IMG/VR virus record: IMGVR_UViG_3300045988_179014
Span: 96,001 to 160,000 of that record
DNA length: 64,000 nucleotides
Direction: 5' to 3' (one strand)
Origin: a virus
Below, in pieces: positions 1 through 45,361 of this stretch. Position 1 is the stretch's first letter. The number at the start of each line of letters is the position of its first letter. Position numbers and translations under genes: made by a program. Below the pieces are notes generated by a model that saw only the letters and a program-made list of their open reading frames with translations, was not told the DNA's origin and did no database searches.

Positions 1-100
1 TACACCCGCAGAATACTAGTTTCTGTCAATTACTATATTTGATTGTAATGTAAAAACAGTTATGACTATATGCAATAAATTATAGGCAATTTGTAATGAG

Positions 101-173
101 TGGCACCAAAGGGAATCGAACCCTTGACCTTTCGCTTTTCAGGCGAACGCTCTGCCAACTGAGCTACAGTGCC
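101..173 (-). tRNA. tRNA-Phe, anticodon GAA, CCA encoded
   Basis: The reverse complement folds as a cloverleaf: acceptor ggcactg/cagtgcc, D-arm tagctcagttgg, anticodon loop cuGAAaa, T-arm GGTTCGATTCC, 3' CCA. Confidence 0.85.
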
Positions 174-206
174 AAAACTTAGTGATTATACTTTCACATT
201 ATGTTG

Positions 207-279
207 TGCGTTGCCTGGGACTCGAACCCAGAACCCACTGATTAAGAGTCAGTTGCTCTACCAATTGAGCTAGCAACGC
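207..279 (-). tRNA. tRNA-Lys, anticodon CUU, no encoded CCA
   Basis: Acceptor gcgttgc/gcaacgc, anticodon stem actga/tcagt with loop cuCUUaa, T-arm GGTTCGAGTCC. Confidence 0.8.
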
Positions 280-300
280 GTGTTTTATAATAATTTGAGA

Positions 301-609
301 TTACTCTTTGTCCCATCCTTCATGTTCTGGGTGTTTCTCCCAAAATGACTTCTTGTGAGAATGTGAGTGAAAAGGTTGAAGCAATTTGTTAATCCAGGGA
401 ACCTGCTCACACAGCTCATGAGCACATTCATGGCACAACACAGCTTCGTAATCCGTTTCCCCTAACACACCAGAATGCCCTAAGTTGTCAACAAACATAC
501 CATATCCACCGTAAAAGCCTATCCATAAAGCATTGTTGAATTGATAGTTAGTATTTTCATTGGGGAATTGTGGAGCCAATTCTGTTTCACAAGCTGTGCA
601 TTGGGCCAT
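301..609 (-). CDS. small Cys-rich protein (CTAC ... CHEC pairs), possible zinc-binding
   Basis: ORF 301..672 trimmed to the internal ATG at 607-609, which has a GGAGAG RBS 8 nt upstream. The annotated upstream part overlaps the tRNA at 646-718. Confidence 0.4.
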   Translation of the reverse strand: MAQCTACETELAPQFPNENTNYQFNNALWIGFYGGYGMFVDNLGHSGVLGETDYEAVLCHECAHELCEQVPWINKLLQPFHSHSHKKSFWEKHPEHEGWDKE

Positions 610-645
610 CGTTTTCTCTCCCCGGTCTAATTCGTATTTCTCCAG

Positions 646-718
646 TGCCCTTGGTGGGACTCGAACCCACACTAAACAGATTTTAAGTCTGCTGCCTCTA
701 CCATTGGGCTACAAGGGC
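646..718 (-). tRNA. tRNA with anticodon UAA and a short type-I variable arm; identity ambiguous (Leu-like by anticodon)
   Basis: Acceptor gcccttg/caagggc, anticodon stem gcaga/tctgt with loop cuUAAaa, 5-nt variable region, T-arm GTGGGTTCGAGTCCCAC. Confidence 0.6.
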
Positions 719-726
719 ATAATTGG

Positions 727-800
727 TACGGCAGGGGGGATTTGAACCCACCTATTTCCACTTTATAAGAGTGGCGCTCATACCGATTAGCATCTGCCGT
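727..800 (-). tRNA. tRNA-Ile-like, anticodon UAU (reads AUA)
   Basis: Acceptor acggcag/ctgccgt, anticodon stem ccact/agtgg with loop cuUAUaa, T-loop TTCAAAT. Confidence 0.7.
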
Positions 801-888
801 ATGTAGTTTTCACATGTTGTTAAGTTGTGAATCCATTATAACTGATTCATCCAATATTTGCAACAATACTTCTCTTTGTTTTTTGCTA

Positions 889-964
889 GCACCCTCGGTG
901 GGACTCGAACCCACATCAATCCAATTATGCGCTGCCCGCTTAGAAGGCGGTGCCAGTACGAGGG
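889..964 (-). tRNA. tRNA-Arg-like, anticodon loop cuUCUaa; fold atypical
   Basis: Acceptor gccctcg/cgagggt and T-arm GTGGGTTCGAGTCCCAC are clear. The Arg-UCU anticodon arm follows the acceptor after only about 7 nt. A 20-nt D-loop-like segment (cagcgcataattggattgat) lies between the anticodon arm and the T-arm. Confidence 0.5.
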
Positions 965-987
965 CATGTTTTCATATGTTGGCGACT
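964..987. repeat. 24-nt element catgttttcatatgttggcgacttg, inverted copy at 1627-1650
   Basis: Both copies encode MFSYVGDL in opposite orientation and both abut a tRNA gene end. Confidence 0.5.
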
Positions 988-1138
988 TGTCGGGTCTCTC
1001 ACCCGAAGCTCTGGAGTACAAGTCCAGTGTGTTCTTCCCAGAATAGATGACACAAACCACTTTTTCTGGTAGTTCTAGTCCTTGAGGAAGAATTTTGTGC
1101 TTCTTCCTCATTCTGCTAGACCTTACACCATCGCGTCG

Positions 1139-1212
1139 TCGGGAAGACAGGATTTGAACCTGCGACTTCTGGTACCCAAAACCAGCGCTCTACCAAACTG
1201 AGCTACATCCCG
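1139..1212 (-). tRNA. tRNA-Pro, anticodon UGG
   Basis: D-arm tagctcagtttggtagagc, anticodon stem ctggt/accag with loop uuUGGgu, T-arm GCAGGTTCAAATCCTGT. Confidence 0.8.
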
Positions 1213-1255
1213 GTATTTAAGAATATTTTATTGTAAATTATCAGACTAAATTCAG

Positions 1256-1328
1256 CACGACAGGAGGGATTCGAACCCCCATCTAACACTTTTGGAGAGT
1301 GTCGCTCTACCAATTGAGCTACTGTCGT
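1256..1328 (-). tRNA. tRNA-Trp, anticodon CCA
   Basis: Acceptor acgacag/ctgtcgt, anticodon stem acact/agtgt with loop cuCCAaa, T-arm GGGGGTTCGAATCCCTCC. Confidence 0.85.
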
Positions 1329-1370
1329 ATGGATAAATGGCATCCTAATGTTAAAGTGCACACGAAGATA

Positions 1371-1649
1371 CTAGGTACTCTTTAACATCCATTTTTCATC
1401 CAGAATAGATGCTGCATTCTGGATATCTGTAATGGATAACACACCTTCAACATATGAGAAACTACTATTGTTATCACATATGCAAAAATCATAAATTGTT
1501 CCATCTTCAGCTAAGCCATAACAAAGATGAAACATGTCATCTATCTCAAAAGTAATGGATGCAATACGTCCATTACGATATGCGTCATGAAATTCAATGG
1601 ATGTTGGAGTTTTTCCTCGGCTTATCAAATCACCAACATATGAAAACAT
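1371..1649 (-). CDS. hypothetical 92-aa protein embedded in the tRNA array
   Basis: ORF 1371..1715 trimmed to the internal Met (MFSYVGDL...). The longer ORF start overlaps tRNA-Ala. Confidence 0.4.
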   Translation of the reverse strand: MFSYVGDLISRGKTPTSIEFHDAYRNGRIASITFEIDDMFHLCYGLAEDGTIYDFCICDNNSSFSYVEGVLSITDIQNAASILDEKWMLKST

Positions 1650-1671
1650 GACATCACATCCTTCAATCACT

Positions 1672-1746
1672 TGGTGGAAGCTAGGGGATTCGAACCCCTG
1701 ACCCTCTGCTTGCAAAACAGATGCTCTACCACTGAGCTAAGCCCCC
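1672..1746 (-). tRNA. tRNA-Ala, anticodon UGC, CCA encoded
   Basis: gggggcttagctcagtggtagagc, anticodon loop uuUGCaa, T-arm AGGGGTTCGAATCCCCT, 3' CCA. Confidence 0.85.
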
Positions 1747-1780
1747 AATAATAAATATGATTGAAAATTATATACATGCG

Positions 1781-1853
1781 TTGGGACATTGGGATTTGAA
1801 CCCAAGACCTCATCTGTATCAGAGATGCGCTCTAACCACTGAGCTATGCCCCA
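1781..1853 (-). tRNA. tRNA-Ile, anticodon GAU
   Basis: tggggcatagctcagtggttagagc, anticodon stem catct/agatg with loop cuGAUac, T-arm TTGGGTTCAAATCCCAA. Confidence 0.85.
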
Positions 1854-1882
1854 TTAATGTCTCTCATCAAGAGAGACAATTG

Positions 1883-1953
1883 CTGCCCCACCTGGATTCG
1901 AACCAAGATTAACTGAGTCAGAGTCAGTTGTGCTGCCATTACACTATAGGGCA
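1883..1953 (-). tRNA. tRNA-Gln, anticodon CUG
   Basis: Acceptor tgcccta/tggggca, anticodon stem actga/tcagt with loop cuCUGac, T-loop TTCGAAT. Confidence 0.8.
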
Positions 1954-1982
1954 AGGAGAGTATTATTGATTACTTTGTATTA

Positions 1983-2045
1983 GGCCCAGTGGTGCTGTTG
2001 TTGTGGGCTGGTATTTTTTTGAGGTTACCACTGGGCCAACAACAT
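1983..2045. other. structured element (ggcccagtgg ... ccactgggcc with nested gttgttgt/acaacaac) between tRNA-Gln and tRNA-Val
   Basis: 10-bp perfect inverted repeat enclosing a second complementary pair and a T7 run; no ORF. Confidence 0.35.
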
Positions 2046-2099
2046 GGTTGGTATAACATAGGTTTTTTCTTATGAAATCACTATACCATAACTACCATG

Positions 2100-2176
2100 T
2101 GGTGGACACAGAGATAATCGAAATCCCGACCTCCTGGGTGTAAACCAGGCGCTCTAACCAACTGAGCTATGCGTCC
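2100..2176 (-). tRNA. tRNA-Val, anticodon UAC, CCA encoded
   Basis: ggacgcatagctcagttggttagagc, anticodon stem cctgg/ccagg with loop uuUACac, T-arm GGGATTTCGATTATCTC, 3' ACCA. Confidence 0.85.
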
Positions 2177-2200
2177 ATTGTGAAACTAAGCAACATTGTG

Positions 2201-2273
2201 TGCTCTGAACGGGATTTGAACCCGTGTTGCTGCCTTGAGAGAGCGGCGTCCTAGGCCACTAGACGACCAGAGC
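2201..2273 (-). tRNA. tRNA-Glu, anticodon CUC
   Basis: Resembles bacterial tRNA-Glu (tcgtctagtggcctaggac ... GGGTTCAAATCCCG). Anticodon loop cuCUCaa; one mismatch in the anticodon stem. Confidence 0.75.
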
Positions 2274-2294
2274 ATAAAATGTTGGTTTTTATTT

Positions 2295-2368
2295 TGGAAC
2301 GGGTAAGGATTCGAACCTTACATATACCGGTAAAAGGCCGGCCGATTTGCCATTAATCTACCATTCCA
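2295..2368 (-). tRNA. tRNA, probable Lys (UUU); noncanonical anticodon loop ccUUUua
   Basis: Acceptor ggaatgg/ccgttcc, anticodon stem gccgg/ccggt, T-arm TAAGGTTCGAATCCTTA. Loop position 33 is C; assignment is by eye. Confidence 0.55.
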
Positions 2369-2547
2369 TGGGCAATTTCTTACCCATTTTCTCATCCCCA
2401 TCCAAGACTCTAACTTGGATGCCCTTCCGGTGCATTATCTTTATGCTAATGGGGCAACCATAGGTTCATTCCATATTGTAGGACAAACTATTCGAATTCA
2501 TCTATCCTGACAAAAATGAATTGTTCCCGTAGGTTGGATTATATCCG

Positions 2548-2620
2548 CTCCTCCACCTGGACTCGAACCAGGAACCGTTCGGTTAACAGCCGAATGCTCT
2601 GCCAATTGAGCTACAGAGGA
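2548..2620 (-). tRNA. tRNA-Asn, anticodon GUU (copy 1)
   Basis: tcctctgtagctcaattggcagagc, anticodon stem ttcgg/ccgaa with loop cuGUUaa, T-arm CCTGGTTCGAGTCCAGG. Confidence 0.85.
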
Positions 2621-2661
2621 ATATAGTATTACATTACAATAATACTTCAACATTTAGTTGG

Positions 2662-2736
2662 TACGCCCTGTGGGACTCGAACCCACGACCTACGGATTAA
2701 AAGTCCGCAGCTCTAAACCAACTGAGCTAAGGGCGC
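2662..2736 (-). tRNA. tRNA-Lys, anticodon UUU
   Basis: gcgcccttagctcagttggtttagagc, anticodon stem gcgga/tccgt with loop cuUUUaa, T-arm GTGGGTTCGAGTCCCAC. Confidence 0.85.
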
Positions 2737-2808
2737 ATGATAACTTCCCAATTTTTCCTTTGGATACTCGAAAACGCTCCATAATGGAAAAATTATCTCT
2801 GGGATGCG

Positions 2809-2891
2809 TGGATAGGGAGGGATTCGAACCCCCAGCGTTTCTTATGTCACGGTTTTACAGACCGCTTACTTCACCATTTGTATACCTATCC
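2809..2891 (-). tRNA. tRNA-Tyr, anticodon GUA, long variable arm
   Basis: Acceptor ggatagg/cctatcc, anticodon stem gcggt/accgt with loop cuGUAaa, about 15-nt variable arm, T-arm GGGGGTTCGAATCCCTC. Confidence 0.8.
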
Positions 2892-2926
2892 AGGTAATGT
2901 TTGTTTATATTCAATTGTTTTCTCAG

Positions 2927-3013
2927 CGGAGACGACAGGATTCGAACCTGCGGAGGGTGTAACCCCTCGACAGTTTAGCAAACTGTTGCTTTAGGCCTCT
3001 CAGCCACATCTCC
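2927..3013 (-). tRNA. tRNA-Ser, anticodon GCU, long variable arm
   Basis: ggagatgtggctgagaggc, anticodon stem acagt/actgt with loop uuGCUaa, 19-nt variable arm cgaggggttacaccctccg, T-arm CAGGTTCGAATCCTG. Confidence 0.8.
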
Positions 3014-3046
3014 AAGTATAACATATGCATGCTATTGATGCAAAAG

Positions 3047-3117
3047 AGGTGCCTATGGGATTCGAACCCATGTACACGGTTTTGCAGACCGCTGCCTCGC
3101 CACTCAGCCAAGGCACC
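3047..3117 (-). tRNA. tRNA-Cys, anticodon GCA
   Basis: Acceptor ggtgcct/aggcacc, anticodon stem gcggt/accgt with loop cuGCAaa, T-arm ATGGGTTCGAATCCCAT. Confidence 0.85.
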
Positions 3118-3118
3118 G

Positions 3119-3194
3119 CACTCCGGGTGAGAGTCGAACTCACATGTGTCCATTAACCTTTCTACTGGTTCGTAGCCAGAGGGTATACCGGAGT
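3119..3194 (-). tRNA. tRNA-Arg-like, anticodon loop cuACGaa; fold atypical
   Basis: Acceptor actccgg/ccggagt and T-arm GTGAGTTCGACTCTCAC are clear. The Arg-ACG anticodon loop matches the bacterial CTACGAA loop. As in 889-964, the anticodon arm follows the acceptor after about 8 nt, and a 21-nt D-loop-like segment precedes the T-arm. The gene abuts tRNA-Cys. Confidence 0.5.
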
Positions 3195-3260
3195 AATACA
3201 ATCCAAATATTAGGATGATTCATAGATTCTACATTTGTTGGTAACAGTAGAATCTATTTT

Positions 3261-3336
3261 GGGGTGACTGACCGGATTCGAACCGGCGAAATCCTGAGTC
3301 ACAGTCAGGCGTGTTAACCTCTCCACCACAGTCACC
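3261..3336 (-). tRNA. tRNA-His, anticodon GUG
   Basis: Acceptor ggtgact/agtcacc, anticodon stem cctga/tcagg with loop cuGUGac, T-arm GCCGGTTCGAATCCGGT, discriminator C. Confidence 0.85.
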
Positions 3337-3342
3337 ATTCTG

Positions 3343-3415
<73 letters not shown>

Positions 3416-6400: not shown

Positions 6401-8464
6401 TCTCAGACAAGGAATCATTCCACAGCAAGTTTGCATCTTCACGAAACTGTTCTCTTCTGAATCGAAACTTGTGCACCCGGCGACCTTGCGCCACATAAGA
6501 ATAATCAGAGCTGAGTTCTTTATCTGTCACAAAACCCAATGATTTATACATGCTACCATTGCTGACATCATGAGCAGAGAAAGTGACGATTTGGTTGATT
6601 CCTTCAATTACGCACCATTTTCTGACGTATTCAAGCATCTTCCCCAATCCGCCCATCACAATACAAGACGTGGCATATCGGTCCAACACCAAACTCTGAT
6701 TCCTGCGACTCCAAACGGAAACCGCCACTAAACCATCCTGTTCAGTTTTCAACCCCAAATACAATGAGCCAGTGGTAGTTCCCTGAATATGATAAACATT
6801 CAAAAAATCAGATACATCAGTATATTGCAAAACTACAACTTTAGTTTTTCTCGCAGCTATCCTTTTGCTCTCATTCAGTCCCAGTTTGTGTTGTATCATA
6901 GATTTGATGATAGAAGAACGATAACACCAATCATCCTCCCAAACCTGCAACAATTGAATGCCTTTTCTTTACACAATCGCCATTTCATCGAATGATAGTT
7001 TTTGTCTTTACCATTGGTGTCAGAATGCCAATGCAAACCATTGTATTCAATAGCAAAATTCTTTGATGGTATATAAACATCCAGTTCATACGGTGGAATA
7101 ACAGCACGAGTATTGCTAACAACAGAATCCTCATCACCCAACAATTGTTTCACAAACTCTTGAAGTTCTTTCTCAGCTCTGGACGTGAATGAACCAGCCA
7201 CACAATCAGGACATTGACTATTGTAAAAATTACGTGCATTGACTCTTGCACACCACACATGGCCTTTACTGCATTTCCACCAGATTTTGTGATTGGAACC
7301 AGCAGTTACTTCCTCAGGGGTCAAGGAATTGAGTTGGTTGTCCCATTCCTGCGCTAAATGAGGATTAATAGTCGCCAAATCATTGAAACCAGGAACAACA
7401 ACACGATTATTACAAACAGGACACAACTGCATTGATGAGTGAACAGCTTTTTTAATAGATTGTGTCCATTGGTGACCAAGTGAACATTTCCAGTGAACTA
7501 TTTCCCGTGAATTGGGATACACAGCATAGGGATTCAATGGCTGATTAAGTTCCATATCCCAAAAACTCATCAATTCAGGACAACAAACACCCAAGCTCTT
7601 CTCTCTTGGTGCTATCGTGGATTTTTGTACAACACAATATGGGCATTTGGTTCTTTTATTGACACGTTGTTTAACAGTAGCCACCCATAAATGCCCCTCA
7701 GAACATTTCCAATGAACACGAATTTGCTGTGACGGTTTAATCATGGATGGATTGATGTCAGTATTGAGAGCATAATCCCATTCATTCAACAGCTCTGGAT
7801 ACAAAGTCGCAAAATCATTCACACCCACCACTAATTTATGATTACTGCATACCGGACATTTAGTATTTCGTTTAGTACGTTGCGAAACCGGTGCCATCCA
7901 TGTGTGTCCATTCTTGCACCACCAGTAAACCTTGACGCTGGAATTAGCAGTCACATCATTAGGCGATAAGGAATGATTCTGTTCATAATCCCACTCAGAT
8001 GCAATCACTGGATGAGTAATGTTCAAAGTATTGACATTTTGTTCTGGAAGCTTACCTTGACATATTGGGCATGAGCCGCTTTTAATCCGGTGTTTCACTC
8101 CCATGACATATTCATGACCTGATGAACAAATCCAATGGAAACGTTTTGAGTTGGTTCTAGCAACTTGTCCAAAAGGGATTCCATTCATGTTCTCATCCCA
8201 TTCTGACAACAAATGAGGGTATCGAACATCCAATCTTTCTGATGGTGGTCCCAATCTTGCGCACAATGGACAACTACTGCCATTGACTCGGTTACGGACA
8301 GAAGCCATCCACTTGTGTTGACAATGATGACAAACCCAACCCACTTTTTCAATCGTCCCAGCTGAATAATCGGATGGAGTGTGCTTGTTGATAGTCGTGT
8401 CCCATTCCATCAACAACTGAGGAGCCACATCCGTGAGTGAACGTTTGGGTTGAGGTTTACGCAT
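6324..8464 (-). pseudogene. frameshifted paralog of the modular endonuclease family (zinc-ribbon repeats + DUF559-like + conserved C-terminal domain)
   Basis: ORFs 6896..8464 and 6324..6953 lie in different frames and overlap. Together they reproduce the full architecture of 21891..23792 (..YELDVYIPS..AIEYNGLHWH.. then ..QLLQVWEDDW..VWDSGKTRW). The frame break is at the A/T run near 6960-6968. Confidence 0.6.
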
Positions 8465-8466: not shown

Positions 8467-11439
8467 CTAACTCAAACGATTGGGTGGAGTGGTTTTGGCC
8501 GCAGCTGCACGAAAAATGTTCTCCAAAACATTAGCATCCTCCACTGTGGAACCAGTCATGGAACGCATATTGGCTGTCTTGTTGGTGTATGCATCAATAA
8601 TGTTTTCATCCACAGTACCTTCCAAATAGGGAAAATAGGCATTGGCATTTTGACCGTCTCGATGTGCCCGACCCAATGCTTGCTCAGTATCCAAATTGTT
8701 CTGTCGGATATCATGAATTATGCTGACACGTGGGTTACTGCTTGCTTTGTTTCCATCTGGTAATGTTTCTCCAGCATGTAAAGAAATACCAGCAACCACT
8801 GTACACAAAACAACATCTGCTTGCCCCGTCTGAAACTTGATACGTTCTGTTTCTCTCATGGAAACATTACGTCCACTGATTTCCGTTACTCGGAGTTTAC
8901 GCGCTTCCAAAAGTTCTTTATATCGGTCTATTGTTTCCATGAATTCACATGAAATGTATACTTGGTTCCCTGAATCCACAAGGTCTGCAATCATGTCAGC
9001 CATGGAATCAACTTTTAACAATGAGGATTTTTGTCTATATCGTAAGGTTTCTACCAGTGCGCCTTTGGGGTCTCGTTTTGCTGGGGTGAGTCTCAACCAG
9101 TTACGGAAACGTGTCCAAGCTTCCTCGTAAATGGGCCGTTGTTGATTGGTTAGTGCGATTGGGAAAGGAATGGTCAACTGTTCTGGCCATCCTGCTATGT
9201 CTTTGGGTGAACGCATAATGAAAGGAGCATCTGGTTTCAGTAATCCGCGACCTATACGTTGAGCGTCTTTTCGTTGGATTTCTTTTGCGTGTTTGATAGC
9301 TATTTCATATTTTCTGCGTTCCACGGGGTCTTTGGAATTCTTGCTGAAACTGGGAACAGAAGCCCACGAATATCCTGTTTTACCTTTGGTCACAGCGAAA
9401 TTATGTTTTTCCAAGAACGGTCCCCAAGTTGCTGGTGTTACCGTTTTTGATGCTGGCATATTTGTCAACAATGGAGCAATGATTCCAGCCATACTAGCAA
9501 AATTCAGTGGGGATGCTCCAGGTGTGGCAGTTGAATAGACCACAAAAGGAGAAACGTCTTTCTGGTAGGGTTTTTCCAATTGAGCAATGTTCACCGCAGC
9601 AACAGACATGGTGGAGCTGGGATAGTTTTTCAAATAATGAGCTTCATCAAAAATAATGAAGTCCCATTGTATTATGGGGGTTCCTTTCTGTGATGTTTGT
9701 CTGTTCTTGGTTCGTTGTTTCTTAGCGGTTTTGGCTGTTTCAGGAGTTTCCAGCAGTTTGTTCAATTGTTGATAGTTGATGACCATTGGACGCATGAGTG
9801 CTGTGGAGACAGGGTAATTGTGAAGTGTTTGTCTCCATTGTGGAATAACACTTTTAGGGCACACTATCAACAGTTTGGCTTTGTGTTTGACCCCGAATCC
9901 GCGCTGTTTTGCCAATGCAGTAATCCCTGAAAGTGTTGACAGTGTATTGTGAGTGGGAATATGCTCTCGCCCGGCCAGATACAAATGATTAGGACTGTCA
10001 ACACTAATGCAATAATAGGGCTCAGTTTTCTCAATTTCCTGCACTGAAACAATGTATCTGAACTGGTATTGTGCATTGGCAGCGAAATTGTTCAAATATT
10101 CATTCAGCAATGAGGCTTTGTCTTCAATACGGAAAACTTGATGAGTGGGACAATAGTGCAAAGATTTTTTTGTGGTGTTTTGATTCCGTGTGATGTTTGG
10201 TTTTGTACAATCCATGACTTGCCAGCCAAAACTACTAATCAGTGTTTTCACGTCAGCTTGCAGAGGGTCTGGTAAATCAAATTGGACTCCATAAGAATCC
10301 ACAGAACCAGCCACATCCATGATTCCTTGTAACAGTTCCAGTCGTTGTTCCCAATGTGATGTGAGATAACTTACAGGAATTGTTTTAGATGGTGCAGAAT
10401 CATACAGTTCATTCAATTCTTGATTCAGTTTTTCAAAACCATAATCATTCAATATGTTCATGCTTGCCACAGAATCCATTGAACCCAACCATGCACCCAA
10501 TATGTATGGATTGATTGGTAGTTCCTGGTGTGTACCTTCCACCATGGATGCGTTGTAAATACAGTGATTGGGTGTTCCAGTTGTAGCGTAGAGAGAATCC
10601 ACAATTTCTCTAGTGGTTTTGACAGAATCTTGATGCTGCTTGTCATGTGGTGCAGTTGCTCGGTCCAATGCTTCTAGAACTTCTTGTGGATGGTATAGAT
10701 GATGTTGGTTTTGCAGATTCAGAGGATTCACTGTTTCCAGCAGTTTTTGAATAAACACTAGGTTTTCACATTCGCTGGAAAGGGAATTGTAGTCTATTGC
10801 ATTGTGTTGATGTTGTGCATCCAACAAGTAGTTTTGTAATGCTTCGTGGTCTGAATGATTCAGTGGTGGGAATCGGTTGTTTATTTTAGGGTGATTTCGT
10901 TCAGCCAAATTACTGGTTAGCCAACGATGGTCTTCGTCAGCATCCAATGTGCTTCCATCCGAGAAAGTTATACAGTAGAATTTGTCGGCTTTTGATTCAT
11001 ATTTGGCTGTTACCATAGTGGGTAGACCATCAGAACTCAGCACGTATTGCCCCACTGCGATGTCTTTCATGGGAACTAAACCTTGTGGAGTTGGTAGTAG
11101 AGTGCTGGATGCAAGACCTTTACCCAAACCGGTTTTGTCCGCTTCCAGGAATCCTCTCCACCCTTGCTGGTAGGCTTTGATGATTTTCTTGGCCGCTTCC
11201 AGTTGATGTTCTCGTGGGGTGAAACTGACTGAACTTTTCTCAGGGGGCATTACCATTTTGTTCAGTTCATCTTCCTGCCAGCGAGCATAGGAAAAATCCT
11301 CACTACGGTATGGTCTCAACTCGGGGGGAAGAATAGTTCCACGGTATACATGAATTTTGTGGTTTTTCCAGTATTGTACATCTGGGTGTTTGAATCCCCA
11401 TGGAAGTTCCAATGTATGAATCATGTACCACTCACGCAA
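8467..11439 (-). CDS. SNF2/DEAD-like helicase interrupted by an intein
   Basis: N-terminal helicase P-loop ..EADKTGLGKG.. and C-terminal helicase motif VI (QALGRAHRDGQ). An intervening ~390 aa carries intein and LAGLIDADG motifs. Confidence 0.8.
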   Translation of the reverse strand: MREWYMIHTLELPWGFKHPDVQYWKNHKIHVYRGTILPPELRPYRSEDFSYARWQEDELNKMVMPPEKSSVSFTPREHQLEAAKKIIKAYQQGWRGFLEADKTGLGKGLASSTLLPTPQGLVPMKDIAVGQYVLSSDGLPTMVTAKYESKADKFYCITFSDGSTLDADEDHRWLTSNLAERNHPKINNRFPPLNHSDHEALQNYLLDAQHQHNAIDYNSLSSECENLVFIQKLLETVNPLNLQNQHHLYHPQEVLEALDRATAPHDKQHQDSVKTTREIVDSLYATTGTPNHCIYNASMVEGTHQELPINPYILGAWLGSMDSVASMNILNDYGFEKLNQELNELYDSAPSKTIPVSYLTSHWEQRLELLQGIMDVAGSVDSYGVQFDLPDPLQADVKTLISSFGWQVMDCTKPNITRNQNTTKKSLHYCPTHQVFRIEDKASLLNEYLNNFAANAQYQFRYIVSVQEIEKTEPYYCISVDSPNHLYLAGREHIPTHNTLSTLSGITALAKQRGFGVKHKAKLLIVCPKSVIPQWRQTLHNYPVSTALMRPMVINYQQLNKLLETPETAKTAKKQRTKNRQTSQKGTPIIQWDFIIFDEAHYLKNYPSSTMSVAAVNIAQLEKPYQKDVSPFVVYSTATPGASPLNFASMAGIIAPLLTNMPASKTVTPATWGPFLEKHNFAVTKGKTGYSWASVPSFSKNSKDPVERRKYEIAIKHAKEIQRKDAQRIGRGLLKPDAPFIMRSPKDIAGWPEQLTIPFPIALTNQQRPIYEEAWTRFRNWLRLTPAKRDPKGALVETLRYRQKSSLLKVDSMADMIADLVDSGNQVYISCEFMETIDRYKELLEARKLRVTEISGRNVSMRETERIKFQTGQADVVLCTVVAGISLHAGETLPDGNKASSNPRVSIIHDIRQNNLDTEQALGRAHRDGQNANAYFPYLEGTVDENIIDAYTNKTANMRSMTGSTVEDANVLENIFRAAAAKTTPPNRLS
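9946..11110 (-). mobile_element. intein with a LAGLIDADG homing endonuclease domain inside the SNF2 helicase (boundaries approximate)
   Basis: C-terminal intein block ..NHLYLAGREHIPTHN followed by Thr; LAGLIDADG-like motifs PYILGAWLGSMDS and LLQGIMDVAGSVDS; inserted next to the helicase GLGK P-loop. Confidence 0.6.
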
Positions 11440-21890: not shown

Positions 21891-23792
21891 TCATGAATCC
21901 AGCATCTTCACCCAACGAGTCTTACCCGAATCCCAAACTTTGCTCAAACCGTTCAATTCCACCAATTCGGATTCGGTCAAACCATCTTGCCACAATAATT
22001 CCGGGTCTTTCATGAAACGTTGTTTACGAAACACAAACTTGTGGTATCTACAATTCTTCCAAACATACTTGTAATCTGGTGGCAATTCTCTGTCCAGTGT
22101 GAATCCATTGGAAACATACACAGTACCATCACTGACTTCATGGTCTGAGAAAGAAACAATCCGATGAACACCTGATAATTGAACAACAGCATATTTCAGC
22201 AATTTACTGAAACCACCAGGAACAGACACGGAAGTGGCGAAACGTTCCAATACAGCAGTCTCATTTTGCAGAGAAAATGACATAACCGCCACCAACGAAT
22301 TGGTCTCATCCACTAAACCAAAAGACCTGGTAAAATCCTTGAAACCCTGAATATGGTACGAATTCAAAAATTCACGAACCACATTCTTGTCAGGAATCAC
22401 ACCAACCGTTTTACGCGCCATGACACGACTGACACTCAACCCTAATTTGTGTCGTATCATAGATTTGACGATAGAAGAACGATAACACCAATCATCCTCC
22501 CAAATCTGCAATAATTGGACCTGTTTGTCATGACACTGTTTCCACTTGTTGTAATGATACTGACGAGGATTGGGACGTCCAGCTTCACGCATCACATTTT
22601 CTTGATGCCAATACACGCCATTCACTTCAATGGCCAAATGCTTGGATGGTATATAAACATCCAGCTCATATGGCGCAATAAGTGAACGGTCATGTCGCAC
22701 CACGGATTCAGACCCCACTAAACCTTCCACGAACTTTGCAATCTCCAACTCGCTCACTGATGCATTGGACCTGCATTGTCGACAACCACTGTAGCGACGT
22801 GAATAAACTGCCGCTTTCCAAGAATGTCCTTTTTGGCAACGCCACCAGACTTTTCGAGATGATTGAACTGTAACCATTTCTGGTCCATTACCATTCAAAA
22901 CCTCATCCCACTCACATGCAAGGTCAGGAGAAACTGTTTTCAAATCATTGAATCCCACCAAAACCCTAGTGTTTGAATTTGAACAATAAGGACAACCTGT
23001 GGATTGACGATGAGCCACTGATGCTTCCCAAGAATGTCCTCGGAAACACTGCCACCAATATTTGTTAGCTGTTCCATAAAGAACTTCGGATGGCGTCACC
23101 AACCCATTCTTTGATGGATGCCATTCCTGTGTCAGCTGCGGATTGACAGTAGCCAAATCGTTGAACCCGAACCATACTTTCCGATTAGCGCAATACGGAC
23201 ACCCTTGTCGTCTTTGACTTCGTTTAATTATGGATGCTTCCCACTCATGGTTGTTCACACACTTCCACCACACCTTTTTGGAACTGGTGTACAAAACCTC
23301 ACATAGTGATTCAAGATTTTTCACATTCCATTCCGGAACCAACTCTGGATTACAACTGGCCAAATCGTTGAAACCAGATAGAACCTTCCTGTTGGCACAA
23401 TAAGGACAACCTTGATTCCGTGTTGTACGATACTTGACTTTGGCTTCCCAAATATGACCCAAAACACATCGCCATGTGAATACTTGTGAACTGGTAGCAA
23501 GAATAGAACTTGTATCAGGTGTGTTCACGTCCATGATTAATTCTGCTGCTATTTGTGGGAACTGTGACTTCAAATCATTGAACCCAGCAAGCACTTTCCG
23601 ATTCGCACAATAAGGGCAACCACTGTGTCGATTGGATTTGTTGTTGACAGATGATTCATAAGAATGCCCTAATGAACACAACCAATACGCTTTGATGGAG
23701 GAACCTTGTGGAAGATGGTCAGGATTCAAATGAGAATTACGTTTCCAGCCCCATTCACTCATAAGTAACGGAGAATCTGATACATTCCGCAT
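21891..23792 (-). CDS. modular nuclease, probable homing endonuclease: ~9 zinc-ribbon repeats (DUF4379-like) + DUF559/Vsr-like PD-(D/E)xK + conserved C-terminal domain
   Basis: Repeats of W.C..GH.W.A.V..R.....GCPYC.N..V..GFNDL; then YELDVYIPSKHLAIEVNGVYWH; then the QIWEDDW...HIQG...VWDSGKTRW domain shared with the two paralogs. Confidence 0.65.
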   Translation of the reverse strand: MRNVSDSPLLMSEWGWKRNSHLNPDHLPQGSSIKAYWLCSLGHSYESSVNNKSNRHSGCPYCANRKVLAGFNDLKSQFPQIAAELIMDVNTPDTSSILATSSQVFTWRCVLGHIWEAKVKYRTTRNQGCPYCANRKVLSGFNDLASCNPELVPEWNVKNLESLCEVLYTSSKKVWWKCVNNHEWEASIIKRSQRRQGCPYCANRKVWFGFNDLATVNPQLTQEWHPSKNGLVTPSEVLYGTANKYWWQCFRGHSWEASVAHRQSTGCPYCSNSNTRVLVGFNDLKTVSPDLACEWDEVLNGNGPEMVTVQSSRKVWWRCQKGHSWKAAVYSRRYSGCRQCRSNASVSELEIAKFVEGLVGSESVVRHDRSLIAPYELDVYIPSKHLAIEVNGVYWHQENVMREAGRPNPRQYHYNKWKQCHDKQVQLLQIWEDDWCYRSSIVKSMIRHKLGLSVSRVMARKTVGVIPDKNVVREFLNSYHIQGFKDFTRSFGLVDETNSLVAVMSFSLQNETAVLERFATSVSVPGGFSKLLKYAVVQLSGVHRIVSFSDHEVSDGTVYVSNGFTLDRELPPDYKYVWKNCRYHKFVFRKQRFMKDPELLWQDGLTESELVELNGLSKVWDSGKTRWVKMLDS

Positions 23793-43765: not shown

Positions 43766-45361
43766 TTAACTTAGTCGGCTGTCATCAGAGATGTTGATGA
43801 CATTACATATTTTGTGTAGCGAATCAGGTACCGATGAAAAACCGCCTTCTGTTGTCACGAGAATAACCGAATAATATGTACTGCACAGTAGCTCTTGTTC
43901 AACCCGCTGCCAATCCGTGTATCCGTCGGTTCCCAGTATAACAATATTAGGCCGTTTCTTGCGGGGAATCGAGTTGGCGTACTTAAAAGCTACGCTCATA
44001 TCAGTCCCCCCGCCCCCATACAAATCAATTTCACGAACTGATTTCAGGGGAGCAATATTCTTGATTTCCGTGTCAACCGAAAAAACCGTCAACCCACCTT
44101 TTTGCCGCGAACTATTTGAGACAATTGATTCTGCTTCAATCAGCACACTCTCATAATCAGACTTGGTCATGGAGCCAGACGTGTCAATTCCGATGTACAC
44201 CACCGGAGCATAAGACACTTGTCCGGGGAAAATTATCTTTCCAGTATAGCGACGATTAACTTTCCGGTACGAAGTTTCCGTCCTTCCAATTATAATATTA
44301 GAGTAAGCATTTGAAACTGCTCGTCTAAGCAACTCCTGCCACCGAACTTTGGGCGGTTCCATCAAGTTCAGCATAGCTTTTAGCAACTCTGTGGCCGTAC
44401 CGTAACCCTGTCCACCCGAGTTCAGCTCGTCCTTGATGCGCGCTGTTGTATTTCTTTGTGCGAGTGAACGTTCGGTATCAGTAATACGCTCGATGCCAGC
44501 TTCGTCAGCCGCATCCGAACGCGAAAGAGTGCTTTCATCACAGTGTCGTGAATTTTTGGATGATTTGTTACCTTGAGACATTCCTTTTTTGAAGTCATCC
44601 AGTACATCAGAATCGGATGAACTGCCATTGCCCGAGTTTGATTCATTAGACGGATTCTGCGAACCGGAGCCATTTTGGGAAGATGACTGGTCAGAATCGT
44701 TTTCAGAACCTTCTCCTGAAGAATCCTGACCCTGACCATCATTGGTATCTGAATCGTTTCTCTCAGTTCCTTGTTGGCCTTGGTTCTGGCCTGATTGTGA
44801 CTGACCAGATAAACCAGAGCTGTTTCCAGAATCATCACCATTCATGGACAAAGCATCTGCATAAAACTCCATAGTCTTAAATGGCGGCAGATTGAATTTT
44901 TTCGGCGTTAGAAGCATTGAGAAATCGCCCCGTTTTAGGGTTTCCAAGACAGTATTGATTTCCAAATCGCCTGCAACGTTCATCTGTTCAGGCCCAATGC
45001 CCAAACTCTCCGCACGCACAAAATGATTATTTAGCACATGCATACATTCATGCAACAGTACTATAGCTTGCATTTCTTTGTCGCACTGGTAAAGAAACCA
45101 GTACGAAAGTCCCACACGAGCATGAACGTCTGTGTATGCAGTTTTAGCGGTTGCATCCAAAAATGGGCGTAACACGGACAACGCATCACGAAACGATGGG
45201 AGAATGTCTTGAGCTTTCCAGAGCGCCCGAGAAAATATATTGCGCTCATCCGTTGTAAGCGCGCGAATTGGATGATTCTTCAAATCGTATTCCAACCGCT
45301 TCAGAATCTCCTTTTGTTCCGGGGTGAAGTTCTCAACCGTGTTATTGTTATTGTTCACCAC
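43766..45361 (-). CDS. metallopeptidase (HExxH) + von Willebrand factor A domain protein, MoxR partner type
   Basis: HECMH motif near the N-terminus; acidic linker; C-terminal MIDAS GIDTSGSM. Confidence 0.7.
   Translation of the reverse strand: MVNNNNNTVENFTPEQKEILKRLEYDLKNHPIRALTTDERNIFSRALWKAQDILPSFRDALSVLRPFLDATAKTAYTDVHARVGLSYWFLYQCDKEMQAIVLLHECMHVLNNHFVRAESLGIGPEQMNVAGDLEINTVLETLKRGDFSMLLTPKKFNLPPFKTMEFYADALSMNGDDSGNSSGLSGQSQSGQNQGQQGTERNDSDTNDGQGQDSSGEGSENDSDQSSSQNGSGSQNPSNESNSGNGSSSDSDVLDDFKKGMSQGNKSSKNSRHCDESTLSRSDAADEAGIERITDTERSLAQRNTTARIKDELNSGGQGYGTATELLKAMLNLMEPPKVRWQELLRRAVSNAYSNIIIGRTETSYRKVNRRYTGKIIFPGQVSYAPVVYIGIDTSGSMTKSDYESVLIEAESIVSNSSRQKGGLTVFSVDTEIKNIAPLKSVREIDLYGGGGTDMSVAFKYANSIPRKKRPNIVILGTDGYTDWQRVEQELLCSTYYSVILVTTEGGFSSVPDSLHKICNVINISDDSRLS

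What the first reader, a model, noticed from the sequence alone, without database searches (positions are those of the whole stretch)
889..964. tRNA-Arg(UCU)-like gene with rearranged arm order
The acceptor stem and a perfect T-arm are present, and the anticodon arm (accgc-cuUCUaa-gcggg) matches bacterial tRNA-Arg UCU. That anticodon arm begins only about 7 nt after the acceptor stem. A 20-nt segment resembling a D-loop (cagcgcataATTGGAttgat) lies between the anticodon arm and the T-arm. Total length is a normal 76 nt. Either I cannot see an unconventional fold, or D-like and anticodon segments have swapped order.
Basis: seen in the sequence. Interest (0 to 1): 0.55.

Follow-up and report, generated by a model that had tools for sequence, protein, structure and literature searches.

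The report
Phage arginine tRNA with swapped segments
This phage carries two arginine tRNA genes whose D-loop half sits after the anticodon arm instead of before it; about 190 relatives keep this layout, standard gene finders miss it, and I found no published description.

Summary
Window 890-965(-) (anticodon UCU) and 3119-3194(-) (ACG) lie in a 19-gene tRNA array and share one layout: acceptor stem, U8 A9, 10 nt, anticodon loop, then a D-loop-like UAAUUGGA segment, then a normal T-arm. ARAGORN misses both. Rfam's tRNA model reaches only 29.8 and 27.3 bits by deleting the D-arm.

The layout is a conserved family. I collected 192 distinct members from viral contigs, cultured phages and some cellular genomes; 189 have arginine anticodons.
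- Nucleotides 11-13 covary with the 3 nt before the invariant U-A-A, forming a D-stem that encloses the anticodon arm.
- The Levitt tertiary pair covaries perfectly (A:U 74, G:C 6).
- U8, A14, G18G19, A20 and the T-loop are conserved.

Exchanging blocks [10-21] and [22-47] in silico turns 144 of 189 into tRNA-Arg that ARAGORN calls with the same anticodon; it called none correctly before.

In arrays, the permuted genes carry Arg anticodons that the canonical genes lack (5 of 58 shared, 19 expected).

Best reading: functional tRNA-Arg with an internally permuted D/anticodon domain. Function and 3D fold are inferred, not shown. No description was found in the literature.

The parts
890..965 (-). 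Gene 1: permuted-core tRNA-Arg(UCU), 76 nt, no CCA encoded, discriminator G at 890
   Evidence: Family model R1 80.8 bits, E=1.7e-21. Rfam tRNA 29.8 bits with the D-arm deleted. Missed by ARAGORN. Sequence read.
959..965 (-). Gene 1 acceptor stem 5' strand (RNA nt 1-7, GCCCUCG); pairs with 891-897
   Evidence: Sequence. The acceptor helix is 99.3% paired across 80 family members, and all 7 pairs show compensatory changes.
957..958 (-). Gene 1 U8 A9 connector, invariant in the family
   Evidence: T8 and A9 are invariant in alignment A1.
952..956 (-). Gene 1 5' strand of the D-like helix (RNA nt 10-14, CUGGC), equivalent to canonical 22-26. U11:A38 and G12:C37 pair; G13:C35 and C14:G34 pair if G36 is bulged. 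An alternative local register is CUG(10-12):CAG(32-34).
   Evidence: Family covariation: N11 paired 79/80, N12 80/80. The bulged-G subfamily was read. The two registers have equal energy, -25.0 kcal/mol.
935..951 (-). Gene 1 anticodon arm (RNA nt 15-31): stem C16-C19/G27-G30 plus an A15.G31 mismatch, loop CUUCUAA at 940-946, anticodon UCU at 942-944
   Evidence: Sequence. The anticodon stem is 90% paired with compensatory changes at all 5 pairs.
927..934 (-). Gene 1 linker (C32 A33, with G34 in one register) and 3' strand of the D-like helix (RNA nt 34/35-39, ..CGCAU), equivalent to canonical 44-47 and then 10-13
   Evidence: The block assignment was tested by the in-silico swap.
915..926 (-). 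Gene 1 D-loop-like segment (RNA nt 40-51, AAUUGGAUUGAU): A40 = A14, A41 = R15, G44 G45 = G18 G19, A46 = A20 (the ArgRS determinant), U51 = Y48, which pairs with A41
   Evidence: GGA is present in 80/80 members. The Levitt-type pair is A:U in 74 and G:C in 6 with none unpaired, and is the best mutual-information partner. A20 identity from PMC9976931.
898..914 (-). Gene 1 T-arm (RNA nt 52-68): GUGGG UUCGAGU CCCAC
   Evidence: Sequence. The T-stem is 100% paired in the family.
891..897 (-). Gene 1 acceptor stem 3' strand (RNA nt 69-75, CGAGGGU)
3119..3194 (-). Gene 2: permuted-core tRNA-Arg(ACG), 76 nt, with the same segment lengths. Acceptor strands 3188-3194 and 3120-3126; U8 A9 at 3186-3187; D-like helix A11:U39, C12:G38, C13:G37 (3182-3184 with 3156-3158); anticodon loop CUACGAA at 3169-3175 with anticodon at 3171-3173; D-loop-like AAUGGACACAU at 3144-3154; T-arm 3127-3143; discriminator G at 3119. 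One nucleotide separates it from tRNA-Cys (3046-3117).
   Evidence: R1 70.5 bits, E=1.9e-18. Rfam tRNA 27.3 bits, below the gathering score. Missed by ARAGORN. The register was fixed by comparison with L053 and L087. It has 83-86% identical relatives in 48 actinophage records, none annotated at that site among the 40 listed.
100..3415 (-). The surrounding array of 19 canonical tRNA genes, none of them Arg, in which the two permuted genes are embedded
   Evidence: ARAGORN and Rfam. No further T-loop-bearing element lies in the gaps.

Best explanation
Both genes encode working arginine tRNAs whose D/anticodon domain is internally permuted.

In canonical numbering the chain runs 1-7, U8, A9, then [22-47], then [10-21], then 48-76. 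Block [22-47] is the 3' strand of the D-stem, position 26, the whole anticodon arm and variable-loop nucleotides 44-47. Block [10-21] is the 5' strand of the D-stem plus the D-loop. The D-stem therefore still forms, but it closes around the anticodon arm instead of around the D-loop. The D-loop leaves the helix and runs straight into position 48 and the T-stem.

Shown here by computation:
- four covarying helices and one covarying tertiary pair;
- arginine-only anticodons;
- conserved ArgRS identity nucleotides;
- a location in tRNA arrays where these genes supply the Arg anticodons that the canonical genes lack.

Inferred, not shown:
- The molecule folds into the usual L shape (U8:A14, R15:Y48, G18G19 docking on the T-loop, D-helix stacked on the anticodon stem). 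Every element keeps its normal strand polarity and only three backbone connections change: 9 to 22, 47 to 10, and 21 to 48.
- It is cut out of the array transcript by RNase P and 3' trimming, and receives CCA.
- It is charged by the host ArgRS through A20, C35, U36 or G36, and G73.
- It reads AGA/AGG (UCU) and CGU/CGC/CGA (ACG, after A34 is converted to inosine).
- The gene order probably arose once, by duplication and deletion inside a tRNA-Arg gene, and then spread and diversified among phages.

Why phages keep this form is unknown.
For: (1) The two window genes have identical architecture and both carry Arg anticodons. The family model scores them 80.8 and 70.5 bits against 34.8 or less for canonical tRNAs.

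(2) 95 of 119 viral hits to a loop-plus-T-loop pattern share the exact layout, giving 79 distinct sequences that were selected with no reference to the D-like helix.

(3) On a MAFFT alignment not fitted to any structure, 91.1% of cells are paired against 40-45% in slid registers. The D-like pairs are 79/80 (CG 56, UA 12, GC 8, AU 3) and 74/74 (GC 49, CG 15, UA 7, AU 3), with 15 different triplet combinations.

(4) The Levitt-type pair is A:U in 74 and G:C in 6, with none unpaired. It is the best mutual-information partner, and the G:C cases fall in several subfamilies.

(5) U8, A9, A14 and GGA are invariant.

(6) An anticodon-blind scan found ACG, UCU, UCG, CCU and GCG among members. Overall 189 of 192 distinct members have Arg anticodons, the discriminator is G/A/U in 189, and CCA is encoded in 131. 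The bacterial Arg identity set is A20, C35, U/G36 and A/G73 (PMC9976931).

(7) Exchanging the two blocks raises correct ARAGORN calls from 0/189 to 144/189. Moving the 5' cut by 3-6 nt upstream abolishes this.

(8) Segment lengths equal canonical ones: 10 nt for 22-31 and a 4-nt linker for 44-47.

(9) Members sit in tRNA arrays, with a median of 5 canonical tRNAs in the stored stretch. Among 58 arrays holding both kinds of tRNA-Arg, 5 share an anticodon against 19.0 +/- 2.9 expected (P<1e-4); in the unbiased subset it is 0 of 24 against 7.6.

(10) The window's own ORFs use CGU/CGC/CGA for 71% and AGA/AGG for 19.5% of Arg codons.
Against: There is no experimental evidence of expression, processing, aminoacylation or decoding for any member.

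In gene 1 the family-type D-helix register and a local alternative (CUG:CAG) have the same computed energy. The position-10 partner is a C.U mismatch, and the third pair needs a bulged G.

Single-sequence folding is no better than shuffles (z = -0.05), and RNAalifold does not predict the D-like helix.

The 3' cut point of the permutation is not defined by the swap test: shifts of -3 and -6 work as well or better.

Some arrays carry both a canonical and a permuted tRNA-Arg with the same anticodon, so complementarity is a tendency and not a rule (A3Wally; five loci).

The covariation would look the same if the RNA were rearranged into canonical order after transcription.
Confidence: 0.78

Rival explanations
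1. It is a D-arm-less tRNA, as in animal mitochondria, with a long unstructured variable region. The resemblance of that region to a D-loop would be coincidental and there would be no D-stem.
For: This is how Infernal fits both genes to RF00005: 15 D-arm positions are replaced by 4 nt and 17 nt are inserted in the variable region. RNAalifold predicts only the acceptor, anticodon and T stems.
Against: Nt 11-13 covary with the 3 nt before UAA (79/80, 80/80, 15 combinations), and shifted registers drop to 28-38% paired. The A/G after the invariant A covaries with U/C before the T-stem exactly like R15:Y48. GGA is invariant, the T-loop is fully canonical, and swapping the blocks back gives a normal cloverleaf. 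Mitochondrial D-arm-less tRNAs lack these features (PMC7609411).
Confidence: 0.05
2. It is a tRNA-shaped RNA that does not decode, for example a decoy that soaks up a host tRNA-Arg-directed nuclease or another tRNA-binding defence or host factor.
For: The body is non-canonical while the anticodon loop is perfectly canonical, which is what a decoy would need. Phage tRNAs are known counter-measures to tRNA-cleaving defences (PMC10264068, PMC11555353, PMC11464382). Colicin D targets tRNA-Arg, and AriB reads the D-loop as well as the anticodon stem (PMC12409363). A3Wally has an RNA ligase gene next to its array. No aminoacylation data exist.
Against: The full ArgRS identity set, a 7-bp acceptor stem, encoded CCA in 68% and all six Arg anticodons are conserved. 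Permuted genes carry the Arg anticodons that canonical genes in the same array lack. They match the phage's own Arg codon usage, and within the window they are the only Arg tRNAs visible. A pure decoy would not need to complement the isoacceptor set.
Confidence: 0.1
3. The transcript is rearranged after transcription by cutting and re-ligation into a canonical tRNA, by analogy with the circularly permuted tRNA genes of Cyanidioschyzon merolae.
For: The covariation found here is equally compatible with the canonical order. Relatives of this phage encode an RNA ligase next to the array. Permuted tRNA genes that are repaired at the RNA level exist in nature (PMC3978253).
Against: The acceptor ends are already at the gene termini, so circularisation cannot restore the order. 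An internal block exchange would need three cuts and three ordered ligations, for which no mechanism is known. I saw no bulge-helix-bulge motif by eye, and bacteria and phages lack the splicing endonuclease (established knowledge). The native order has its own conserved features that would be pointless otherwise: the invariant U8 A9 placed directly before the 22-25 strand, a 4-nt linker, and an A-Y dinucleotide before the T-stem.
Confidence: 0.03
4. It is a decayed or recombination-scrambled tRNA pseudogene with no function.
For: ARAGORN does not call it. Rfam scores are marginal. Single-sequence folding is no better than shuffles. The array is rich in homing endonucleases that could scramble genes.
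Against: There are two genes with the same layout in one array, 192 distinct relatives with compensatory changes in every helix, a covarying tertiary pair and invariant core nucleotides. Hosts range from Actinobacteria to Proteobacteria. None of this is compatible with neutral decay.
Confidence: 0.02

Closest known systems
Canonical bacterial and phage tRNA-Arg (class I cloverleaf, e.g. E. coli tRNA-Arg(ACG), phage T4 tRNA-Arg(UCU))
   Same: 7-bp acceptor stem, 5-bp T-arm with the GUUCGANUC loop, anticodon loops CU-UCU-AA and CU-ACG-AA, U8, A14, G18 G19, A20, an R15:Y48 pair, an A/G discriminator, about the same length, and a location in tRNA arrays. The same synthetase identity set (PMC9976931).
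   Different: The order of segments along the chain differs: [22-47] precedes [10-21]. There is no D hairpin and no separate variable loop, and the junction is three-way instead of four-way. Standard finders fail: ARAGORN misses 202 of 211, and Rfam tRNA scores 27-30 bits against 45-72 for the neighbouring genes.
Circularly permuted tRNA genes of the red alga Cyanidioschyzon merolae (PMC3978253)
   Same: It is a tRNA gene whose segments are not in canonical order, and it plausibly arose by duplication and deletion.
   Different: In C. merolae the whole gene is permuted: the 3' half lies upstream of the 5' half, with the acceptor ends in the middle. The transcript is circularised and recut into an ordinary tRNA. 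Here the acceptor ends are at the gene termini, the permutation is internal to the D/anticodon domain and cannot be undone by circularisation, and the mature RNA is expected to stay permuted.
D-arm-lacking mitochondrial tRNAs (e.g. metazoan mt-tRNA-Ser(AGY), nematode mt-tRNAs; PMC7609411)
   Same: No hairpin lies between the acceptor stem and the anticodon stem. Infernal aligns the phage genes in the same way, with the D-arm deleted.
   Different: The mitochondrial forms have lost the D-stem and the D-loop/T-loop contact and have degenerate T-loops. The phage family keeps a covarying D-stem, the GG, the Levitt pair and a perfect T-loop.
tRNA-Sec, selC-type tRNA-Cys and allo-tRNAs (8/4, 9/4, 9/3 structures; Mukai et al. 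2017 as reviewed in PMC7609411)
   Same: They are non-canonical tRNAs, some found mainly by mining metagenomes, and are missed or mislabelled by standard tools. Gene 2 gives a weak tRNA-Sec hit (20.5 bits).
   Different: Those keep the canonical order of arms and differ in helix lengths and a long variable arm. The phage family has the standard 7/5 acceptor/T lengths and a changed order of segments.
Phage tRNAs that escape tRNA-cleaving defence systems (T5 tRNA-Lys against PARIS, phage tRNA-Tyr against retron/Septu PtuAB; PMC10264068, PMC11464382, PMC11555353, PMC13096335)
   Same: They are phage-encoded tRNAs in arrays that differ from host tRNAs in ways that may matter for recognition by nucleases.
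   Different: The known escape tRNAs are ordinary cloverleaves with point differences in the anticodon loop, anticodon stem or D-loop. Here the anticodon loop is canonical and the body topology is changed. No link to any defence system has been shown.

Membership tests
tRNA (Rfam RF00005, canonical cloverleaf) | 7-bp acceptor stem closing the molecule, followed by a discriminator base | tested here: met
   GCCCUCG/CGAGGGU plus G, and ACUCCGG/CCGGAGU plus G. 99.3% paired in the family.
tRNA (Rfam RF00005, canonical cloverleaf) | T-arm: 5-bp stem with a 7-nt UUCRANY loop next to the 3' acceptor strand | tested here: met
   GUGGG-UUCGAGU-CCCAC and GUGAG-UUCGACU-CUCAC. 100% paired in the family.
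tRNA (Rfam RF00005, canonical cloverleaf) | Anticodon arm with a 7-nt loop, U33 and a purine at 37 | tested here: met
   CUUCUAA and CUACGAA loops on 4 Watson-Crick pairs plus one mismatch. 90% paired in the family.
tRNA (Rfam RF00005, canonical cloverleaf) | D-arm hairpin between positions 9 and 26, with arm order acceptor-D-anticodon-variable-T | tested here: not met
   Only 10 nt separate A9 from the anticodon loop. Infernal deletes the D-arm and ARAGORN finds no cloverleaf.
tRNA (Rfam RF00005, canonical cloverleaf) | Score at or above Rfam's gathering threshold (29 bits) | tested here: inconclusive
   Gene 1 scores 29.8 bits, and only with permissive filters. Gene 2 scores 27.3 bits. Neither is listed in the default gathering run.
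tRNA (Rfam RF00005, canonical cloverleaf) | Core tertiary nucleotides: U8, A14, R15:Y48, G18 G19 | tested here: met
   All are present in both genes. They are invariant in the family, and R15:Y48 covaries (A:U 74, G:C 6). Their actual contacts were not testable.
tRNA-Arg (bacterial ArgRS substrates) | Identity set of A20, C35, U36 or G36, and A/G73 (PMC9976931) | tested here: met
   Gene 1 has A46 (equivalent to A20), C23, U24 and G76. Gene 2 has A46, C23, G24 and G76. In the family GGA is 80/80, anticodons are Arg in 189/192, and the discriminator is G 93, A 57, U 39.
tRNA-Arg (bacterial ArgRS substrates) | Aminoacylation with arginine and decoding of Arg codons | not testable with these tools
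   Only indirect support: complementarity with canonical Arg isoacceptors and a match to the phage's codon usage.
Permuted-core tRNA-Arg family defined here (model R1) | Layout of acceptor stem, U8 A9, 10-11 nt, 7-nt anticodon loop, 5-nt stem strand, 3-8 nt linker, 3-nt D-stem partner, U-A-R..GGA.., A-Y, T-arm | tested here: met
   Both window genes fit with no indels in the core.
Permuted-core tRNA-Arg family defined here (model R1) | R1 score in the family range (42 bits or more; canonical tRNAs 40 or less) | tested here: met
   80.8 and 70.5 bits. The ranges come from 100 viral loci. The two genes were part of the model's seed, so their scores are partly by construction; cultured-phage members outside the seed score 67.8-80 bits.
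Circularly permuted tRNA genes (Cyanidioschyzon type) | 3' half upstream of 5' half, acceptor termini joined inside the gene, processed through a circular intermediate | tested here: not met
   Both acceptor strands lie at the ends of the gene and pair with each other in the native order.
Mitochondrial-type D-arm-less tRNA | Loss of the D-stem and of the D-loop/T-loop elements | tested here: not met
   A covarying D-like helix, an invariant GG and a canonical T-loop are all present.
tRNA-Sec / allo-tRNA | Acceptor/T helices of 8/4, 9/4 or 9/3 and a long variable arm with a stem | tested here: not met
   The helices are 7/5 and there is no conserved hairpin in the post-anticodon segment. The tRNA-Sec model scores 20.5 bits against a gathering score of 47.

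The most novel reading that the evidence does not exclude
The permuted core is an adaptation and not a frozen accident. By removing the canonical D hairpin and variable loop while keeping the acceptor/T domain, the anticodon loop and A20, phage tRNA-Arg would stay a substrate for RNase P, the CCA-adding enzyme, ArgRS, EF-Tu and the ribosome. It would become invisible or uncleavable to host factors that read the tRNA body, such as tRNA-cleaving defence nucleases or Arg-tRNA-specific toxins. That would make it a natural, body-level 'stealth' tRNA, and the first translationally active tRNA with a topology different from the universal cloverleaf.
Probability: 0.2. Interest if true: 0.95.

Novelty: new variant of a known kind. 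Interest (0 to 1): 0.86.

Why it matters
The cloverleaf order of tRNA segments is treated as universal. The known exceptions change helix lengths or lose arms, or are gene-level permutations that are repaired into normal tRNAs.

If these RNAs are charged and decode, they show that the L-shaped core can be built from a differently threaded chain. That bears on how tRNA folds and evolved, on what RNase P, ArgRS, EF-Tu, modification enzymes and the ribosome really need from the tRNA body, and on the design of orthogonal tRNAs.

There are practical consequences too. Phage tRNA repertoires are being under-counted and mislabelled. ARAGORN misses 96% of these genes, and GenBank records leave them blank or call them tRNA-Phe or tRNA-Ser. 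This biases codon-compensation and anti-defence analyses precisely for arginine.

The family occurs in cultured, tractable phages (Pseudomonas PAK_P2 and other Pakpunavirus, Agrobacterium Atu_ph04, Streptomyces Mildred21 and relatives, Microbacterium A3Wally), so every inference here can be tested directly.

Tried and rejected
- **Standard cloverleaf.** ARAGORN and Rfam at gathering thresholds find nothing at either site. The permissive Rfam run gives only a D-arm-deleted alignment.
- **Single-sequence folding.** The MFE is no better than shuffles (z = -0.05). Energy evaluation cannot choose between the two D-helix registers in gene 1. The structure therefore rests on comparative data.
- **RNAalifold.** It recovers only three helices and misses the 3-bp long-range helix.
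- **Close relatives of the whole array.** Megablast against phages finds only single tRNA hits, so I went through pattern scans instead.
- **Non-Arg members.** Most 'non-Arg' hits of the anticodon-blind pattern are ordinary tRNA-Thr genes, whose anticodon arm matches the pattern. Two scanner hits (L049, L180) are parser artefacts. Only L157 (GAU) and, doubtfully, L202 (GUA) remain.
- **Prophage context of the Brucella/Ochrobactrum copies.** PHROG hits on neighbouring ORFs are too weak to decide. Left unresolved.
- **Other hidden tRNA-like genes in the gaps of the window's array.** None carries a T-loop.
- **Literature.** Nine full-text searches and the 2020 review of non-canonical tRNAs gave no description of this fold. 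Subscription-only papers are not covered, so earlier notice cannot be excluded.
- **Not used.** The metagenome scan, the protein homology and structure tools, and tRNAscan-SE (not available).
Full report
**1. What is at the coordinates**

The finding lies on the minus strand inside an array of 19 canonical tRNA genes (window 100-3415), none of which is tRNA-Arg (ARAGORN; Rfam).

- a 7-bp acceptor stem;
- a perfect T-arm;
- a hairpin carrying the tRNA-Arg(UCU) loop CU-UCU-AA at nt 20-26 instead of 32-38;
- a D-loop-like AAUUGGA after that hairpin.

No standard cloverleaf exists for either. ARAGORN calls neither. Rfam's tRNA model lists neither at default settings. With permissive filters it reaches 29.8 and 27.3 bits (gathering score 29) by deleting the whole D-arm and inserting 17 nt into the variable region. 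Folding of the single sequence is uninformative (z = -0.05).

**2. It is a conserved family, not an accident**

The window is a large phage: ribonucleotide reductase, several helicases, many HNH/DUF4379 homing endonucleases, 42% G+C. It has no close relative by megablast.

I therefore searched IMG/VR for the layout itself, an Arg(UCU) loop followed 26-30 nt later by a T-loop where a normal tRNA has about 13 nt. That gives 79 distinct sequences with the window's layout, many with CCA encoded. These were selected without reference to anything between the acceptor stem and the T-stem other than the loop.

**3. Structure from covariation**

The test used a MAFFT alignment of these 78 viral sequences plus the two window genes (A1), which was not fitted to any structure.
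- The proposed structure is 91.1% paired, against 40-45% when partners are slid by 1-3 columns.
- The acceptor (99.3%), anticodon (90%) and T (100%) stems all show compensatory changes.
- Nt 11 and 12 pair with the second and third nucleotide upstream of an invariant U-A-A in 79/80 (CG 56, UA 12, GC 8, AU 3) and 74/74 sequences (GC 49, CG 15, UA 7, AU 3).
- An ungapped recount gives 79/80 and 80/80, plus 57/80 for nt 13. A further 11 sequences belong to a subfamily that pairs nt 13 and 14 across a bulged G; I read that subfamily, which includes gene 1, from the laid-out sequences.
- There are 15 different triplet combinations, and shifted registers give only 28-38% pairing.

So a D-stem-like helix exists, but it encloses the anticodon arm.

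The segment that follows reads A-R-Y-(Y)-G-G-A, the consensus of a canonical D-loop (A14 R15 Y16 Y17 G18 G19 A20). GGA is present in 80/80. The decisive point is that its second nucleotide covaries with the nucleotide immediately 5' of the T-stem: A:U in 74 and G:C in 6, never unpaired. That column is its best mutual-information partner, and the G:C cases are spread over several subfamilies. This is the behaviour of the canonical Levitt pair R15:Y48. U8 and A9 are invariant.

**4. The permutation model and its test**

The segment lengths match canonical blocks.
- The 10 nt between A9 and the anticodon loop equal positions 22-31.
- The usual 4-nt linker after the anticodon stem equals 44-47.
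- The 3' strand plus loop equals 10-21.
- The base before the T-stem is 48.

The chain order is therefore 1-9, [22-47], [10-21], 48-76. This is an exchange of two adjacent blocks, or equivalently a circular permutation of the D/anticodon domain inside an otherwise normal tRNA.

I tested this by exchanging the blocks in silico. ARAGORN called 3 of 189 native sequences and none correctly. After the swap it called 154 of 189, and 144 as tRNA-Arg with the same anticodon. Moving the 5' cut 3 or 6 nt upstream, which breaks the D-stem, gave 8 and 5 calls. Moving the 3' cut by -3 or -6 still works (178 and 169 calls), so that boundary lies somewhere in the loop between G19 and position 48 and is not fixed by this test.

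All elements keep their normal strand polarity. Only three backbone connections differ from a canonical tRNA: 9 to 22, 47 to 10, and 21 to 48. From established tRNA crystal structures (recalled, not computed here), these nucleotides are neighbours in the core: U8:A14:A21 stacks on R15:Y48, A9 lies in the D-stem groove near 23, and 44-45 lie next to 26 and 10:25. An L-shape is therefore plausible, but that is an inference.

**5. Arginine specificity and function**

A second, anticodon-blind scan looked for a D-loop GG followed 10-16 nt later by a T-loop. Among the 47 cleanly parsed family members in new loci it returned ACG 21, UCU 14, UCG 7, CCU 4 and GCG 1; L137, a further ACG member, was misparsed by the script, giving 48 Arg members. 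The other pattern hits are ordinary tRNA-Thr genes.

A structural scanner run over all loci found 192 distinct members. Of these, 189 have Arg anticodons, two of the remaining three are parser artefacts, and one (L157) has an Ile-like GAU loop. The discriminator is G 93, A 57, U 39, and CCA is encoded in 131. Bacterial arginine identity is A20 (the main determinant), C35, U/G36 and A/G73 (PMC9976931); both window genes have all four.

Covariance model R1 separates the family (42.6-77.7 bits in 100 loci) from canonical tRNAs (39.9 or less). It scores the window genes at 80.8 and 70.5 bits. Members outside the seed, from cultured phages, score 67.8-80 bits.

The genes live in tRNA arrays, with a median of 5 canonical tRNAs in the stored stretch. 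In 58 arrays that hold both permuted and canonical tRNA-Arg genes, the two kinds share an anticodon in only 5, against 19.0 +/- 2.9 expected by shuffling (P<1e-4). In the unbiased subset it is 0 of 24 against 7.6. The permuted genes therefore fill gaps in the Arg isoacceptor set, which argues for decoding and against a decoy role.

In the window's own 39 long ORFs, CGU+CGC+CGA make up 71% of Arg codons and AGA+AGG make up 19.5%. These are the codons that ACG (as ICG, assuming A34-to-inosine editing as in bacterial tRNA-Arg(ACG)) and UCU would read. Gene 2 ends one nucleotide before tRNA-Cys, the tight packing typical of co-processed array members.

**6. Distribution and annotation**

Cultured phages carry members.
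- Agrobacterium Atu_ph04 (80 bits): nothing annotated at the site.
- Pseudomonas PAK_P2 and other Pakpunavirus, phiPsa397 and the vB_PpuM phages: nothing annotated at the site.
- Stenotrophomonas SOVA965 and Limnohabitans DC31: nothing annotated at the site.
- Streptomyces phage Mildred21: labelled 'tRNA-Phe(gaa)', although the loop is CUUCGAA, which is UCG (Arg).
- Alishewanella Slicko01 and Slickus01: labelled 'tRNA-Ser', although the loop is CUUCUAA.

The window's ACG gene has 83-86% identical relatives in 45 Streptomyces phage records and 3 Microbacterium phage records. None of the 40 listed is annotated at that site. Microbacterium phage A3Wally has an unannotated permuted ACG gene inside a cluster of canonical Arg tRNAs.

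ARAGORN misses 202 of 211 members in genomic context.

A scan of one genome per bacterial or archaeal species gave 91 pattern hits, of which 37 are members. Most are on MAG contigs and a few are in isolates such as Brucella/Ochrobactrum. Their context is not clearly prophage, and I leave that open.

**7. Comparison with what is known**

The closest thing functionally is ordinary tRNA-Arg. Formally the genes fail the defining arm order of the cloverleaf, and gene 2 falls below Rfam's threshold.

They are not Cyanidioschyzon-type permuted genes. Those are permuted as whole genes and are repaired through a circular RNA (PMC3978253). Here the acceptor ends are terminal and the permutation is internal.

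They are not mitochondrial-type D-arm-less tRNAs, because the D-stem, the GG and the T-loop are all intact. They are not tRNA-Sec or allo-tRNAs, because the helices are 7/5 and there is no variable arm. The 2020 review of natural non-canonical tRNAs lists nothing like this (PMC7609411).

Nine full-text searches found no description. Papers outside the library cannot be excluded.

**8. Why phages keep it**

This is unknown. Phage tRNAs are established counter-measures against tRNA-cleaving defences. Such nucleases read the anticodon loop, the anticodon stem, the D-loop or the variable loop (PMC10264068, PMC11464382, PMC11555353, PMC12409363, PMC13096335). Colicin D is specific for tRNA-Arg (cited in PMC12409363). 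A body-level change that preserves ArgRS and ribosome function while removing the canonical D hairpin and variable loop could be selected in that arms race. I rate that at about 0.2. A frozen accident that spread by descent and horizontal transfer among tRNA arrays is the default alternative.

**9. Verdict**

The best explanation is a functional tRNA-Arg with an internally permuted core (confidence about 0.78). The remaining probability is divided among a non-decoding decoy, a D-arm-less reading, RNA-level rearrangement and a pseudogene. This is a new variant of a known kind (tRNA), it would surprise specialists, and it is directly testable in cultured phages.

Noticed in passing
L013, L051, L056, L071, L097, L105, L115, L102, L106, L062, L111, L012, L049, L008, L003 (positions): About 16 viral contigs carry canonical-order tRNA-Arg(UCU) genes with a long, stem-forming variable arm, for example L013 ...CUUCUAAUCUGG CGAGCUGCAAUGCUCAUU GCGGGUUCGA. 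That is a class-II-like tRNA-Arg, which is itself unusual because long variable arms are normally limited to Leu, Ser, Tyr and Sec.
   Followed up: no
L157:193-271 (-); L202:1295-1389 (-): L157 has the permuted fold (60.5 bits on model R1) but the anticodon loop CUGAUAU (GAU, Ile-like), making it the only convincing non-Arg member. L202 is a 95-nt GUA (Tyr-like) sequence with UAAUGGA after the anticodon arm, but it scores only 28.7 bits and is doubtful.
   Followed up: partly
window 965-990 (+) and about 1625-1650 (-): The sequence CATGTTTTCATATGTTGGYGAYTTG occurs twice in inverted orientation inside the tRNA array. On the minus strand it starts the internal Met of ORF 1371-1715 (MFSYVGDLISRGKT...). 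On the plus strand it starts a 26-codon ORF (MFSYVGDLSGLSPEALEYKSSVFFPE) that abuts the 5' end of the permuted tRNA gene. It looks like a duplicated N-terminal gene fragment.
   Followed up: no
L319 (Microbacterium phage A3Wally, MZ150783, 89109-98179): The deposited tRNA product names look systematically wrong, as if anticodons had been translated as codons. For example ARAGORN's tRNA-Gly(tcc) is deposited as 'tRNA-Ser(tcc)' and its Thr(cgt) as 'tRNA-Arg(cgt)'. An RNA ligase gene (gp169) directly follows the array.
   Followed up: partly
hit H82: One phage record is listed with a masked name and accession ('Microbacterium phage xxxxxxxxxxxx', 191,968 bp). It is probably the window's own source. 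The window is most likely a ~192 kb Microbacterium phage related to A3Wally and Zooman; its tRNA-Pro is 91% identical to that of Arthrobacter phage Atuin.
   Followed up: no
L241, L258, L287 (Brucella haematophila, Brucella cytisi, Ochrobactrum sp.) and other genome-contig loci: Permuted tRNA-Arg(UCU) genes with GC-rich stems, a U discriminator and encoded CCA occur in a few bacterial isolate chromosomes. They lie next to single tRNAs and not in arrays, and the neighbouring ORFs give few phage-family hits. Whether they sit in prophages or other islands, or serve the cell, is open.
   Followed up: partly
window 6896-8464, 21891-23792, 54371-56056, 43766-45361, 8467-11439, 35942-38314 (all -): There are three large paralogous DUF4379/HNH homing-endonuclease ORFs and a fourth HNH-related ORF. 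An SNF2-type helicase ORF has a weak intein-splicing match, which may mark an intein. The phage also encodes a class A penicillin-binding protein with a PASTA domain.
   Followed up: no
window 724-800 (-): The tRNA-Ile(UAU) gene is the weakest canonical tRNA of the array, scoring 44.9 bits on Rfam against 49-72 for the others. A UAU anticodon for Ile is uncommon in bacteria.
   Followed up: no
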